From the IMG/VR virus record IMGVR_UViG_3300029930_000001, positions 10,935-74,934 of that record: DNA of 64,000 nt. The stretch is one strand, 5' to 3'. This stretch comes from a virus. Lineage: Duplodnaviria; Caudoviricetes. Below are positions 51,175 to 62,111 of the stretch, in pieces (position 1 is the first letter of the stretch; the number at the start of each line of letters is the position of its first letter). A program made the position numbers and the translations under genes. The notes under the pieces are model-generated. The model was not told where the DNA came from. It ran no database searches and saw nothing but the letters and a program-made list of their open reading frames with translations.

Positions 51175-51254
51175 GGTGCAATATAAAAATTGTAGCTTGT
51201 TTCGGCAGTCTCTATTTGGTTGTTAGATTGTTGGCAAGACAATTTAATAGCGCC

Positions 51255-51737
51255 ATGCTGAGAGCGAATGGTCCCGATGAGCTATTGCATTCCCTCATTG
51301 AACTTCGCCCTGGAGATGCCAAACGTCGTTTTAGAAAAAGTATCTTTGAAGACTATTTCCTGCGTGGCCCATTAGGGCAATGTGCATGTGCATATTGCGG
51401 ACGATGGGGAGAGAAGATGACCATTGATCACATTGTCCCCAAAAGCAAAGGCGGCCCGCACTTTGCTAAATACAACATGGTGCCGGCATGTCAAAAATGT
51501 AATTTAGACAAGGGCAATTTGCCCATTCTTGAATGGTGGCGTCCACAGCAATTTTGGACGGAAAAGCGAGAAGAAGCTTTAATGTCGTGGGTGTATTGTC
51601 ATAGCTTTGTTAGTGCCCATACAAATCAAAAGGATCTGGAGGACTGGTGTGAGCGCCGTGGCATTGCACTGCCGTTTCATGAAACAATTGAGCATGAAAA
51701 AGGCCCCTTTTGGGGCCTTTGTTGTAATGCCGCTTAG
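51255..51737 (+). CDS. HNH endonuclease (McrA-like)
   Basis: CAYCG....TIDHIVPKSKGG...NMVPAC..CN..K. Confidence 0.85.
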   Translation: MLRANGPDELLHSLIELRPGDAKRRFRKSIFEDYFLRGPLGQCACAYCGRWGEKMTIDHIVPKSKGGPHFAKYNMVPACQKCNLDKGNLPILEWWRPQQFWTEKREEALMSWVYCHSFVSAHTNQKDLEDWCERRGIALPFHETIEHEKGPFWGLCCNAA

Positions 51738-53831: not shown

Positions 53832-53845
53832 AGTGAAATGCTAAC

Positions 53846-54268
53846 GCGCTCCTCGCGCCCTTGCCCAACCGAAACTCGCCCGTGCTCACCTAGCCCCTTA
53901 GAACCCCACCGTGCCACTGGCCTTAAATTGCGCTCCTCACGCCCTCACCAGACTCCGCCCCACCTTTGCCAGCCATAACCCACCGAGACAAACCACGCCA
54001 CTGACCAAAACTTGCACTCCTCGTGCCCCAAGCTAGGCAAACCTGTCCACTGCGAACCTTACCCCACCTCGCCATTCCCAACCACACCTCTGACCTTAAA
54101 TTGCGCTCCTCGCGCCCTCACCAATACTCGCTGCGCCACTATCAACCGCGCCATGGCACGCCGTGCCTCTGGCCATAATTTGCGCTCCTCACGCCCTTGC
54201 CCCGCCCGAGCCAGCCGCGGCTTACCTCACCAGGCCCGTCCTGAACAGACCTAACCGCACCTCCGACC
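53846..54268 (-). ncRNA. array of five GGY-NN pentamer guide-like units
   Basis: Units at 54268-54182, 54174-54103, 54095-54014, 54006-53930 and 53922-53846; each is GGYCRGW + 10-13 (GGY-like triplet + NN) + GGGCRYGAGGAGYGC, joined by 7-nt A/U linkers. Confidence 0.85.
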
Positions 54269-54276
54269 AAACGAAA

Positions 54277-54294
54277 GGCTCCCTTTCGGGAGCC
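54277..54294 (-). other. GNRA hairpin leading the array
   Basis: GGCTCCC-GAAA-GGGAGCC followed by TTTCGTTT, 28 nt after the Cas7-like stop. Confidence 0.65.
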
Positions 54295-54322
54295 CTCATA
54301 CTAAGCCGTCAAGAGCGAACCG

Positions 54323-54922
54323 TCAAGAGAAAACGCCTTCGCTCACAGCAAAGCGTCCATAACGCGGCCGCCATTCACACAATCCAATCTGGGAGCCAGC
54401 AGCTTCGGCCAGATCTTCAATCTGCTGCTTATTGAAAACAGCATCGTTAAAGACAATAGTCGCACGAGCAGACCAGCCAGTACCAAAAATCGGACGAGTG
54501 CGCATTACTTTTGCAGTGCCCACGCGAACGCCTTTGCGGAAGACAAACTTGCGGCTGTCGTACATCTCGTCAAGAGCCGTCTCATCAACTGACTCAGGCA
54601 CTCCATCGCCTTCAATCAGCAAGTGATCTTCAACGAAAAGACCGCGAGCAGCATCCTTGCCAAGTCGTGAAAGCTTTGCTGCTCCTACAAGCGATGCTTC
54701 AAAACAGTCAGAAGGAACAATGAGCTTACCTTCGTTGACGTAGAGGCCGCCGCGCCATTCAAGCTTGGCCATCATTTCATGATCGGCCTCTGTCTTTTTC
54801 CGCTTTCCAGAAATCTTTTTGATTTCTTGACTAAAAGCGTAGAACGGGTCGGCCAATTCGCCGTTGTGAACGATCAATGGGGCAATCCCCGTAATCTTGA
54901 AGCTGTAGGACTGTTGCGCCAT
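54323..54922 (-). CDS. Cas7/RAMP-like RNA-binding protein associated with the GGY-NN array
   Basis: ITGIAPLIVHN (beta-1), IVPSDCFEASL (IPGSSLKG-like), RTRPIF...W.A...F, terminal Gly-rich loop GSQIGLCEWRPRYGRF; ATG at 54922. Confidence 0.7.
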   Translation of the reverse strand: MAQQSYSFKITGIAPLIVHNGELADPFYAFSQEIKKISGKRKKTEADHEMMAKLEWRGGLYVNEGKLIVPSDCFEASLVGAAKLSRLGKDAARGLFVEDHLLIEGDGVPESVDETALDEMYDSRKFVFRKGVRVGTAKVMRTRPIFGTGWSARATIVFNDAVFNKQQIEDLAEAAGSQIGLCEWRPRYGRFAVSEGVFS

Positions 54923-55250
54923 GTTCAAAAGAACGTGAAGGACGTTGTGATTGGTGATCAACGATGACAGGCACTCCTTGAAGCTGATGTTTGCGACGGC
55001 GAACGCTGTCTGTAATCGCTTCGTGGCAGTGACGGCAGAGTGTGATCAAGTCGGAAAGACGTTCCTTCCCCAGCGGATATGGGTAATAGAACAACGGAGG
55101 ACCGCCGTATTTGTGATGGACCTCCAAGTCTTCGCAACAACCGCAAGTCTGACAGCAGTGTCCATCAACGTCAAGCCTCTGCTGGCGCTTTTCAGCCCAG
55201 ATTTCAGAGGCCATGTATTTGCTGTAGTAATCGGTGGCTGGCTTATTCAT
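54831..55250 (-). CDS. HNH endonuclease
   Basis: CQTCG...LEVHH....LG.E...DLITLC..CH; overlaps the start of the Cas7-like gene. Confidence 0.8.
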   Translation of the reverse strand: MNKPATDYYSKYMASEIWAEKRQQRLDVDGHCCQTCGCCEDLEVHHKYGGPPLFYYPYPLGKERLSDLITLCRHCHEAITDSVRRRKHQLQGVPVIVDHQSQRPSRSFEHGATVLQLQDYGDCPIDRSQRRIGRPVLRF

Positions 55251-55267
55251 GAGGGTAGATAGTAGAA

Positions 55268-55339
55268 AGGAGGGCGCAAGCCCTCCTCCCCGCCGTGCCC
55301 GACCGTGGCTAGCTGCGCCAAGGCGAAGCGGACCATGCC
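55268..55339 (-). ncRNA. solitary GGY-NN unit with its own promoter and closing hairpin
   Basis: TAAGAT -10 at 55354-55349; 10 pentamers at 55339-55290; AGGAGGGC-TTGC-GCCCTCCT hairpin. Confidence 0.65.
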
Positions 55340-55351
55340 GTTATCGGTATC

Positions 55352-55939
55352 TTACCCCACTCGGGGCAATGTGGCAACTGCGCCTTGGTTTTGGTAGATG
55401 CCATTTCCGTAACCATGTGCCGAGTCCGAACTAAGTTGGACAAACATCACTTGAACAATTCCTTCAAAGCAATAAACTTTAACTGGAAAAGCCAGGGGAT
55501 TGACAATACAAATAGTAAGGTGACCAGACCAACCAGGCTCAATTGGCGTGACGTTAATGATGGTCCCTTGACGCGCATAAGTGGATTTCCCGTCGCAAAT
55601 GCCCATAACGTTTGGGGGCATTGTGATGAGCTCCAAGCTTACGCCAAGCGCGTAGGAAAATGGGGGCAGGATGAAGAAAGTACTGCCAAGCTCCTCAATG
55701 GGAGTGGCCTTGTACATTAGCTCCTTATTGAAAGCCTTGACATCCAGGGCTTCCACTTCCTTGGAATTGTTAATGACCATAAAATCGTCTGGGGAAAGAC
55801 GAAGGTCATAACCAGCATGAGAAAGTCCATAAGACAATGCTTTGGTGCCATTGTCTAGTTCTCTAGTTTTTTCTCCAACGAAAGGGAAAAGGATGTCGTT
55901 TTCTGCAAGAACAGTGATTTCCTTGTCGTTAAGAAGCAT
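55352..55939 (-). CDS. dcd: dCTP deaminase
   Basis: LSYGLS..GYDLRL, GKSTYAR.G, TPIEPGWSG.LT, Y...YQNQ. Confidence 0.9.
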   Translation of the reverse strand: MLLNDKEITVLAENDILFPFVGEKTRELDNGTKALSYGLSHAGYDLRLSPDDFMVINNSKEVEALDVKAFNKELMYKATPIEELGSTFFILPPFSYALGVSLELITMPPNVMGICDGKSTYARQGTIINVTPIEPGWSGHLTICIVNPLAFPVKVYCFEGIVQVMFVQLSSDSAHGYGNGIYQNQGAVATLPRVG

Positions 55940-61907: not shown

Positions 61908-62111
61908 TTGCGCATCGTTAATACGGTGCGCTTTTTAATTATGAAAATCATTTGGGAAGACAATGGTCAGAGCTTCGATCAGCTTCCTCCTGTAAAGACC
62001 CTGGAGCCGGAGGCTGCGGAGGCTGCGGAGGCTCAGGAGGATGAGGAGGCTCAGGAGGGTGCGGAGGAAACGCAATACCAACCTCCTTCTGGCACTGGGT
62101 TTGGCTGGTAG
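61908..62111 (+). CDS. low-complexity acidic protein with 9-bp tandem repeats
   Basis: GGAGGCTGC-type repeats encoding EAAEAAEAQEDEEAQE. Confidence 0.4.
   Translation: MRIVNTVRFLIMKIIWEDNGQSFDQLPPVKTLEPEAAEAAEAQEDEEAQEGAEETQYQPPSGTGFGW

What the first reader, a model, noticed from the sequence alone, without database searches (positions are those of the whole stretch)
55268..55354. Sixth, stand-alone GGY-NN unit with its own promoter upstream of the HNH/Cas7-like genes
Seen: in the dcd-HNH intergenic gap on the minus strand, TAAGAT (-10-like, overlapping the dcd stop) is followed 9 nt later by ggc-AT ggt-CC gct-TC gcc-TT ggc-GC agc-TA gcc-AC ggt-CG ggc-AC ggc-GG and an 8-bp hairpin with a short U run. 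It has the same pentamer grammar as the array but a different 3' hairpin and no CAGA handle. Inference: a separately transcribed guide, or a 5' leader where the Cas7-like protein could bind its own mRNA for autoregulation or attenuation.
Basis: partly seen in the sequence, partly recalled or inferred. Interest (0 to 1): 0.7.

Follow-up and report, generated by a model that had tools for sequence, protein, structure and literature searches.

The report
Upstream VIPR guide RNA targeting rival dcd
The "sixth unit" is the upstream guide RNA of a phage-borne VIPR system, a CRISPR-like system first described in 2026. It spells a conserved motif of the neighbouring dCTP deaminase gene as rival sibling phages carry it, but not as this phage carries it.

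Summary
A period-5 GGY score over the whole 64-kb window gives only six peaks, all on the minus strand: five in the array and one at 55339-55290.

The system is already known. The adjacent 199-aa protein is a Vipr RAMP (profile E 9e-52 to the solved SUSP1 Vipr; Csm3/Cas7-like fold). GGY/NN repeat RNAs are the vrRNAs of VIPR systems (bioRxiv, 2026). In SUSP1, one vrRNA lies upstream of vipr and three lie downstream.

What I add for this unit:
- **Target:** read by the published 1-nt-skip rule, its ten NN pairs match codons PVRVYANEGI of dcd in sibling phages at 20/20.
- **Reach:** 13 IMG/VR contigs match exactly, and 111 of 118 related dcd loci match at 16/20 or better.
- **Self-avoidance:** the phage's own dcd reads PVKVYCFEGI and scores 14/20, which is background.
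- **Reciprocity:** sibling phages carry a different upstream guide that matches this phage's dcd (IINVTPIEP) at 20/22, and their own dcd at only 17/22.
- **Context:** the unit is the 5' edge of a 1.5-kb vrRNA-HNH-vipr-array cassette that cassette-free siblings lack.
- **3' end:** its hairpin differs from the array tails, as in other upstream vrRNAs of this clade.

Transcription and binding are inferred, not shown. This scan had already identified VIPR on this window and on other DNA.

The parts
55349..55377 (-). Promoter-like site: -35 TTGCCA (55377-55372), 17-nt spacer, -10 TAAGAT (55354-49, overlapping the dcd stop). The predicted start is about 55342.
   Evidence: 9 of 12 consensus positions. 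TAAGMT is invariant in the alignment of six cassette-bearing loci, including L009 and L010 where the dcd stop lies upstream. The -35 is poorly conserved. No transcript data.
55290..55339 (-). Guide tract of the upstream vrRNA: ten GGY/NN pentamers with NN string AT CC TC TT GC TA AC CG AC GG.
   Evidence: score 26 against a background of 9.8 +/- 2.5. Target matches.
55264..55291 (-). 3' tail: GC-rich hairpin. The core 8-bp stem is 55287-55280 paired with 55275-55268, loop TTGC. It extends to 12 bp, taking in the last NN and the U run. It is probably the 3' end, cap or terminator of the vrRNA and of dcd transcripts.
   Evidence: -21.4 kcal/mol, z -3.8. The stem is invariant in siblings while the loops differ. 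The terminator scan did not call it, because it has too few free T. A similar GGAGGG/CCCTCC hairpin with a T run follows dcd in cassette-free L019.
55352..55939 (-). dcd (dCTP deaminase, 195 aa), the gene immediately upstream. Its alleles in other phages are the target of the guide.
   Evidence: Pfam DCD E 7.7e-20. Solved Dcd proteins align across both targeted motifs.
55457..55486 (-). The phage's own dcd codons PVKVYCFEGI. This is the site homologous to the guide's target, recoded so that it matches at only 14/20.
   Evidence: There is no site with 3 or fewer mismatches in the window or in the whole 74.9-kb genome. YCFEG was not seen in any of the 104 related dcd loci where this motif could be read; 14 more were too short to read it.
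55533..55564 (+). Site in this phage's dcd (antisense of codons TIINVTPIEPG) matched at 20/22 by the different upstream guide that sibling phages L006-L011 carry.
   Evidence: The siblings' own dcd (ILNVCPIEP) scores 17/22.
54831..55250 (-). HNH nuclease gene, the probable nuclease-type Vap accessory of this VIPR clade. It overlaps vipr by 92 nt.
   Evidence: PHROG HNH families down to E 8e-9; Pfam HNH is below its cutoff. An HNH homolog lies directly upstream of vipr in 72 of 78 distant relatives.
54323..54922 (-). vipr (199 aa), the RAMP protein that should polymerise on the GGY repeats.
   Evidence: Profile E 8.9e-52 and single-sequence E 3.4e-27 to PDB 36pp 'SUSP1 Vipr protein'. AF2 pLDDT 95.6, with Csm3/Cas7 as top folds. 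Residues H19, R143, E183-W184-R185, K35, R41, K83 and K89 align with the published GGY- and DNA-contact residues.
53846..54268 (-). Downstream array of five vrRNAs. It is context only, not part of the finding. The last unit matches the orf121 allele of siblings at 20/22.

Best explanation
The element is the upstream vrRNA of an HNH-associated VIPR cassette.

Proposed mechanism:
1. An RNA of about 80 nt is made, either from the TAAGAT promoter-like site or as the 3' end of dcd transcripts. It ends at, or is protected by, the GC hairpin.
2. About ten Vipr protomers, one per pentamer, polymerise on it. They bury each GGY and expose each NN.
3. The exposed dinucleotides read double-stranded DNA with one base skipped between pairs.
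4. The string AT CC TC TT GC TA AC CG AC GG is the antisense of codons PVRVYANEGI, with the skipped bases on the wobble positions. The complex therefore binds the dcd gene of co-infecting sibling phages.
5. The phage's own dcd, 12 nt upstream of the guide, is recoded at that motif and is spared.
6. The outcome is a transcription block of the rival's dcd operon, and possibly cutting by the cassette's HNH.

Shown here: the repeat grammar and its rarity, the Vipr identity of the protein, conservation of the unit's position and hairpin in siblings, the exact targets, self-avoidance, and reciprocity.

Inferred: transcription, loading onto Vipr, and the effect on the target.
For: - **Grammar:** there are only six period-5 GGY peaks in 128 kb of sequence (both strands), and this is one of them.
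- **Protein:** it is a Vipr homolog with conserved GGY-reading residues.
- **Literature:** vrRNAs are 9-16 YNNGG repeats plus a tail. SUSP1 expresses one upstream of vipr and three downstream, and its upstream vrRNA1 was the guide used in the functional assays.
- **Conserved position:** all cassette-bearing siblings have a unit at the same place, just before the HNH ATG, with the same hairpin.
- **Exact targets:** 20/20 in L006 dcd. Thirteen IMG/VR contigs match exactly, every one at PVRVYANEGI of a dcd gene. Controls with the NN order shuffled have mean 14.1 and maximum 18.
- **Breadth:** 111 of 118 related dcd loci score 16/20 or better, against a maximum of 15 for the reversed-order control.
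- **Self-avoidance:** the phage's own site scores 14/20, and no site in its genome has 3 or fewer mismatches.
- **Reciprocity:** the siblings' upstream guide scores 20/22 on this phage's dcd and 17/22 on their own.
- **Clade pattern:** other upstream vrRNAs of this clade also end in a simple GC hairpin, unlike their array tails.
Against: - No RNA data exist. The only RNA library holding related sequence is kept as contigs and cannot show transcripts.
- The tail differs from the array tails, whereas the literature describes an invariable tail within the clades it studied. Loading onto Vipr is therefore assumed.
- The hairpin stem shows no covariation, because it is invariant across siblings.
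- Four of ten pentamers deviate from GGY by one base.
- The -35 element is not conserved.
- Dcd is a diffusible enzyme, so silencing it alone would do a co-infecting rival little harm. The benefit of this target is not explained by repression alone.
Confidence: 0.85

Rival explanations
1. It is an autoregulatory leader or attenuator. Vipr binds the GGY tract in the 5' leader of the HNH-vipr mRNA and changes hairpin formation or read-through, setting its own level. The unit would be a cis site rather than a guide.
For: The unit and hairpin sit between a promoter-like site and the HNH ATG, with only 13 nt between hairpin and ATG. The hairpin has a weak U run, so read-through is likely. In the SUSP1 constructs, vrRNA1 and vipr are transcribed together.
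Against: A cis site needs only the GGY positions. Here the NN pairs spell a rival gene at 20/20 with wobble alignment, and they are swapped for another dcd-directed string in siblings. Only 17 of 78 distant relatives have any upstream unit, although nearly all have HNH-vipr. The unit is therefore not a general requirement for expression.
Confidence: 0.07
2. It is a hired-gun or decoy guide. The RNA is made mainly to be loaded by the nearly identical Vipr of a co-infecting sibling, turning that rival's machinery against the rival's own dcd or soaking up its protein.
For: Solo vrRNAs that redirect another element's Vipr are documented. Sibling Vipr proteins are 88-98% identical, so cross-loading is likely.
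Against: The phage encodes its own Vipr 330 nt downstream. Many targeted siblings have no vipr at all. This is an added effect rather than a different element.
Confidence: 0.05
3. It is a decayed, non-functional vrRNA remnant, or simply the dcd 3' UTR and terminator with a chance G-rich periodicity.
For: Four of ten pentamers are imperfect. The tail is not the array tail. A similar hairpin follows dcd in a cassette-free relative.
Against: The periodicity lies about 6.5 sd above background. A decayed guide would not keep 20/20 matches to a conserved motif of the adjacent gene's alleles while avoiding its own. The published pipeline itself notes frequent internal degeneracy of vrRNAs.
Confidence: 0.03

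Closest known systems
vrRNA1 of the Escherichia phage SUSP1 VIPR locus (type II VIPR; bioRxiv 10.64898/2026.04.26.720920 and .720927)
   Same: Both are a single vrRNA encoded upstream of vipr, on the same strand, while the other vrRNAs form a downstream array. Both have GGY/NN pentamers within the published range of 9-16. Both show 1-nt-skip, wobble-aligned targets in competing mobile elements and no self-target at 80% or more.
   Different: An HNH gene lies between this guide and vipr, and there is no DNA-binding vap1. The tail is a plain GC hairpin rather than the SUSP1 pseudoknot, and it differs from the tails of the same locus's array. The target is a sibling phage's metabolic gene next to the cassette, not a satellite.
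Nuclease-associated VIPR types (types III-V of the same preprint; HNH-containing Vap shown in its fig. S21)
   Same: Vipr is paired with a predicted nuclease. HNH sits directly upstream of vipr in 72 of 78 relatives.
   Different: The preprint describes the nuclease types as enriched in cellular defence islands and acting against viruses. This clade sits in viral contigs (519 or more IMG/VR loci) and aims at sibling phages.
Solo vrRNAs and vrRNAs aimed at relatives' VIPR loci (bioRxiv 10.64898/2026.10.15.759431)
   Same: These are kin-directed guides that spare their own locus by a lower self-match score. They also target amino-acid-determining codon positions.
   Different: Those guides target vipr or other vrRNAs. 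This one targets the flanking dcd gene, and the carrier has a full VIPR system.
Class 1 CRISPR crRNA with a Cas7 backbone
   Same: A RAMP filament forms on a guide RNA, with thumb-induced periodic base flipping and a variable part capped by a conserved structured end.
   Different: The period is 5 nt with only 2 read bases, against 6 nt with 5 read. There are no repeat-spacer units, no cas1/cas2 and no Cas6.
Free-standing homing endonuclease cassettes of T4-like phages (resemblance in logic only; from my own knowledge)
   Same: The cassette is inserted between two conserved genes. Its recognition site lies in the neighbouring gene of cassette-free relatives, and the carrier's own allele is immune.
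   Different: Recognition here would be RNA-guided. Cleavage and gene conversion are not shown.

Membership tests
VIPR system / vrRNA | A Vipr (minimal RAMP) gene in the same locus | tested here: met
   Gene 54922-54323 (-). Profile E 8.9e-52 and single-sequence E 3.4e-27 to PDB 36pp SUSP1 Vipr. AF2 pLDDT 95.6, with Csm3/Cas7 as the top folds.
VIPR system / vrRNA | Vipr residues that read G1, G2 and Y3 and that contact DNA | tested here: met
   H17/R138/D177-W178-R179 of SUSP1 align with H19/R143/E183-W184-R185 (D to E). K33/R39/K82/K88 align with K35/R41/K83/K89. H19, R143 and W150 are among the invariant columns of 36 homologs.
VIPR system / vrRNA | 9-16 tandem pentamers with conserved GGY and hypervariable NN | tested here: met
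   There are ten pentamers: G1 in 9/10, G2 in 7/10, Y3 in 10/10. The NN string is replaced in siblings while the register and hairpin are kept.
VIPR system / vrRNA | A conserved structured 3' tail capping the repeat tract | tested here: inconclusive
   A stable hairpin is conserved in all siblings. However, it differs from the array tail, shows no covariation, and no pseudoknot was found. Upstream vrRNAs of distant relatives also end in simple hairpins.
VIPR system / vrRNA | Target found under the 1-nt-skip rule at 80% NN match or more, wobble-aligned, with no self-target | tested here: met
   20/20 in 13 IMG/VR contigs, all at dcd codons PVRVYANEGI. The best score in the phage's own genome is 14/20.
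VIPR system / vrRNA | Expressed as a small RNA of about 100 nt that co-purifies with Vipr | not testable with these tools
   Only contig-level runs were available, and none shows RNA ends.
VIPR system / vrRNA | An accessory vap gene | tested here: met
   HNH lies directly upstream of vipr here, in all siblings, and in 72 of 78 relatives at 38-47% identity. The numbered type was not assignable.
CRISPR array / crRNA | Identical direct repeats alternating with contiguous spacers, plus cas adaptation or processing genes | tested here: not met
   No such repeats were found. No cas gene other than the RAMP lies in the surrounding ORFs.
Rho-independent terminator | A GC-rich stem followed by a free run of 5 or more U | tested here: inconclusive
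   The stem is present. The tail is only TTTCT and can pair into the stem, and the scan did not call it.
TRAP-type attenuator (triplet repeats wrapped round a protein ring) | A TRAP-family protein and (G/U)AG repeats in the leader of the regulated operon | tested here: not met
   The protein is a RAMP, not TRAP. The triplet is GGY. I held this idea before the literature search and then dropped it.

The most novel reading that the evidence does not exclude
The upstream guide is one arm of an RNA-guided homing or drive cassette.

- The 1.5-kb block (upstream vrRNA, HNH, vipr, array) sits exactly between dcd and orf121, which are adjacent in cassette-free siblings.
- Its two outermost guides read those two flanking genes as the siblings carry them, on opposite strands, with both 5' ends facing the insertion point.
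- The carrier's own flanks are recoded.
- The HNH-vipr core is 85-98% identical between phages whose flanks are only 58-77% identical.

If the HNH cuts at Vipr-bound sites, repair from the carrier genome during co-infection would copy the cassette, together with its immune alleles, into the rival. Each guide and its linked recoded allele would then behave as a poison-antidote pair, and the two guide variants seen here would be mutually hostile alleles.
Probability: 0.25. Interest if true: 0.8.

Novelty: new member of a known kind. Interest (0 to 1): 0.45.

Why it matters
VIPR was described only in 2026, and its natural targets have been worked out mainly for coliphage SUSP1 and a Pseudomonas prophage.

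This unit shows the same code at work in an uncultured freshwater phage lineage that has a nuclease partner. It gives an unusually clean natural experiment:
- Two guide variants sit at one locus, and each spells a different deeply conserved motif of the adjacent dcd gene.
- Each variant is linked to a dcd allele recoded at exactly that motif.
- Each variant matches the other's allele.

This is direct sequence evidence for guide-driven amino-acid change in an enzyme. It also shows tight linkage between a guide and an immune allele.

The case further shows that one Vipr may serve guides with two different 3' ends, which bears on what the tail actually does.

If the homing reading holds, it would link RNA-guided binding to mobile-element spread in lytic phages.

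Tried and rejected
- **Ideas held before the literature search:** a TRAP-like ring-binding RNA, G-quadruplex repeats, or a centromere-like DNA site. All were dropped once the protein proved to be a Vipr and the targets were found.
- **Rfam:** the gathering-threshold scan found only a tRNA.
- **Tandem Repeats Finder:** it does not see the units.
- **blastn against GenBank phages:** no match for the locus.
- **Public runs:** 20 rows hold part of the stretch, but all are served as contigs. The single RNA library (X20) holds a relative whose HNH is about 95% alike, while 55287-55487 is replaced by diverged sequence of the same length. This says nothing about transcription.
- **The look-up of encoding contigs:** I used a profile scan of IMG/VR instead.
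- **Bacterial genome scan with the guide pattern:** exact hits in 32 of 185,579 species (Zixibacteria, Blastocatellia, Ignavibacteriales and others). I did not check the gene under these hits; a shared Dcd motif is the likely cause. They give no sign of a host target and no clue to the host.
- **Array guides 1-4:** none has a match above background in the loci held.
- **Hairpin covariation:** none is available, because the stem is invariant.
- **VIPR type number:** not assigned.

Full report
**1. The observation**

On the minus strand the dcd ORF (55939-55352) ends in TAA within TAAGAT (55354-49). Nine nt later, ten pentamers run from 55339 to 55290 with NN string AT CC TC TT GC TA AC CG AC GG. 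They are followed by a GC hairpin (core stem 55287-80 paired with 55275-68), then TTCT, and 13 nt later the ATG of an HNH ORF at 55250.

I scored G, G, Y at period 5 over ten pentamers at every position of both strands. The background is 9.8 +/- 2.5. Only six places reach 23 or more, all on the minus strand: this one (score 26) and the five units of the downstream array. The grammar is real and is confined to this locus.

RNAfold gives the hairpin -21.4 kcal/mol (z -3.8) as a 12-bp stem that absorbs the U run. The simple terminator scan did not call it, but it did call a sigma-70-like TTGCCA-17-TAAGAT at 55377-55349.

**2. What the system is**

The 199-aa gene 54922-54323 has no Pfam family and matches PHROG 4652, of unknown function.
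- tblastn finds homologs in 139 GenBank phages.
- In five of them that I inspected, the same GGY-NN units flank the gene on its coding strand, upstream in four and downstream in four.
- An AlphaFold model (pLDDT 95.6) resembles Csm3/Cas7.
- A profile of 36 homologs hits the solved 'SUSP1 Vipr protein' at E 8.9e-52.

I checked the three preprints directly. They report that:
- vrRNAs are 9-16 YNNGG repeats plus a 3' tail.
- One Vipr protomer binds each repeat.
- Only the NN pairs read the target, with one target base skipped between pairs.
- Targets are usually coding, with the skip on the wobble base.
- SUSP1 expresses one vrRNA upstream of vipr and three downstream.

The residues that read GGY and hold the DNA are conserved in the window's protein. 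The sixth unit is therefore the expected upstream vrRNA of a VIPR locus. It is not a new kind of element.

**3. Conservation**

Six IMG/VR loci with 88-98% identical Vipr all carry a unit at the same place, directly before the HNH ATG, with the same GGAGGG/CCCTCC hairpin and a conserved TAAGCT.
- Their NN string (TC GG TC AT GG GT AC TT AT AT GA) is shared among them and differs from the window's.
- In L009 and L010 the dcd stop lies elsewhere, yet TAAGCT is kept. This favours a -10 role over a coding constraint. The -35 is not conserved.

**4. The target**

It matches L006 perfectly at 2437-2465. That site is the antisense of dcd codons PVRVYANEGI, with every skipped base on a wobble position.

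| Test | Result |
|---|---|
| Exact matches in IMG/VR | 13 contigs, all at this motif of a dcd gene |
| Siblings at the homologous site | 17-20 of 20 |
| The phage's own site (PVKVYCFEGI) | 14 of 20, which is background |
| Controls with NN order shuffled | mean 14.1, maximum 18 |
| 118 further related dcd loci | 111 score 16/20 or better |
| Reversed-order control on those loci | maximum 15 |

YCFEG occurs in none of the 104 of those loci where the motif could be read. Solved Dcd proteins carry YANEG or YAFEG there, so the own allele is unusual but plausible as an enzyme.

**5. Reciprocity**

The siblings' upstream guide matches the window's dcd at 55533-55564 (antisense of TIINVTPIEPG) at 20/22. 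It matches their own dcd (ILNVCPIEP) at 17/22, below the 80% used in the papers. IINVTPIEP is the canonical form, present in 118 or more IMG/VR contigs.

Each guide variant therefore spells a canonical Dcd motif and is linked, within about 150-200 nt, to a dcd allele recoded at exactly that motif. Each variant also matches the other's allele.

**6. Context**

In cassette-free siblings (L014, L017, L018, L021, L024) the dcd stop is followed within a few nt by the homolog of the 121-aa gene that lies after the array in the window. The block 55351-53832 is therefore an insertion, and the upstream vrRNA is its 5' edge.
- The last array guide matches the orf121 allele of siblings at 20/22.
- Between the window and L006, HNH and vipr are 85-98% identical in nucleotides. 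dcd is 58-77% identical, and the middle array guides 23-39%. The boundary lies at the hairpin.
- An HNH gene sits directly upstream of vipr in 72 of 78 relatives at 38-47% identity.
- Downstream arrays occur in 76 of those 78 relatives, and upstream units in 17.
- In the relatives with an upstream unit that I inspected, it ended in a plain GC hairpin, often with a U run, unlike that locus's array tails. The 'different hairpin' is thus a regular feature of stand-alone upstream vrRNAs in this clade.

**7. How it most likely works**

The unit is transcribed on its own or as the dcd 3' end, and it is capped or terminated by the hairpin. About ten Vipr protomers then load onto it. The complex binds the dcd gene of co-infecting siblings.

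In cassette-free siblings dcd and orf121 are only a few nt apart, so they are probably co-transcribed and a block in dcd would likely be polar on the genes downstream. Dcd is diffusible, so repression alone seems a weak weapon. The conserved HNH, together with the two outer guides reading both flanks of the empty site, makes cutting and gene conversion a live possibility, which I put at 0.25.

No transcript or binding data could be obtained.

**8. Verdict**

The 'guide' reading is supported, and the 'autoregulatory leader' reading is not. The element is a new member of a known kind.

This scan had already identified VIPR on this window, and had seen kin-directed flanking guides on other DNA. 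For this unit I add the exact target, the self-avoidance, the reciprocity, the reach across relatives, and the explanation of the divergent tail.

Noticed in passing
window 53832-55351 (-): The whole block (upstream vrRNA, HNH, vipr, five-unit array) is absent from sibling phages L014, L017, L018, L021 and L024. In those phages the dcd stop is followed within a few nt by the orf121 homolog. The VIPR locus is therefore a discrete 1.5-kb insertion.
   Followed up: partly
window 53846-53910 (-) and L007:4218, L017:2614, L019:8267, L024:4664: The last array guide (NN string AC GG TC GG TA GA CG GA TC TG AA) matches codons TGSGYERDARK of the siblings' orf121 at 20/22. The phage's own orf121 reads ASGYERDCRK. 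This guide is sense to its target and the upstream guide is antisense to dcd, so both 5' ends face the insertion point.
   Followed up: partly
window 54831-54922 (-): The HNH ORF overlaps the start of vipr by 92 nt in another frame. The overlap is kept in sibling L006. In most distant relatives the HNH match ends before vipr starts.
   Followed up: no
window 54268-54326 (-): A second promoter-like site (TTGACG-17-TAGTAT) overlaps the vipr stop. It is followed at once by a GGGCTCCC/GGGAGCC hairpin with a T run, just before the first array unit. Every array unit, including the first, is preceded by a T(T/A)(T/A)GGYC(A/G)G(A/T) stretch.
   Followed up: no
window 55287-55487: In a relative assembled from a sediment RNA library (run X20), this stretch (guide plus dcd 3' end, including the own-allele site) is replaced by diverged sequence of the same length, while the HNH next to it is about 95% identical. 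A contig from an independent freshwater sediment run (X8) carries the window's version with 3 differences in 484 nt.
   Followed up: partly
window 51216-51737 (+): A second HNH-type ORF (173 aa) lies on the opposite strand, beside the DUF3310 and ThyX genes. Nucleotide-metabolism genes (dcd, thyX, DUF3310) cluster around the VIPR cassette.
   Followed up: no
window 62008-62067: A tandem repeat of a 9-nt unit (CGGAGGCTG, 6.7 copies; also read as an 18-nt unit), reported by Tandem Repeats Finder.
   Followed up: no
L019:3993-4045 (dcd oriented on +): A cassette-free relative with a different downstream gene has a GGAGGG/CCCTCC hairpin plus T run right after dcd. It resembles the tail hairpin of the upstream vrRNA, which may therefore descend from the dcd terminator.
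   Followed up: no
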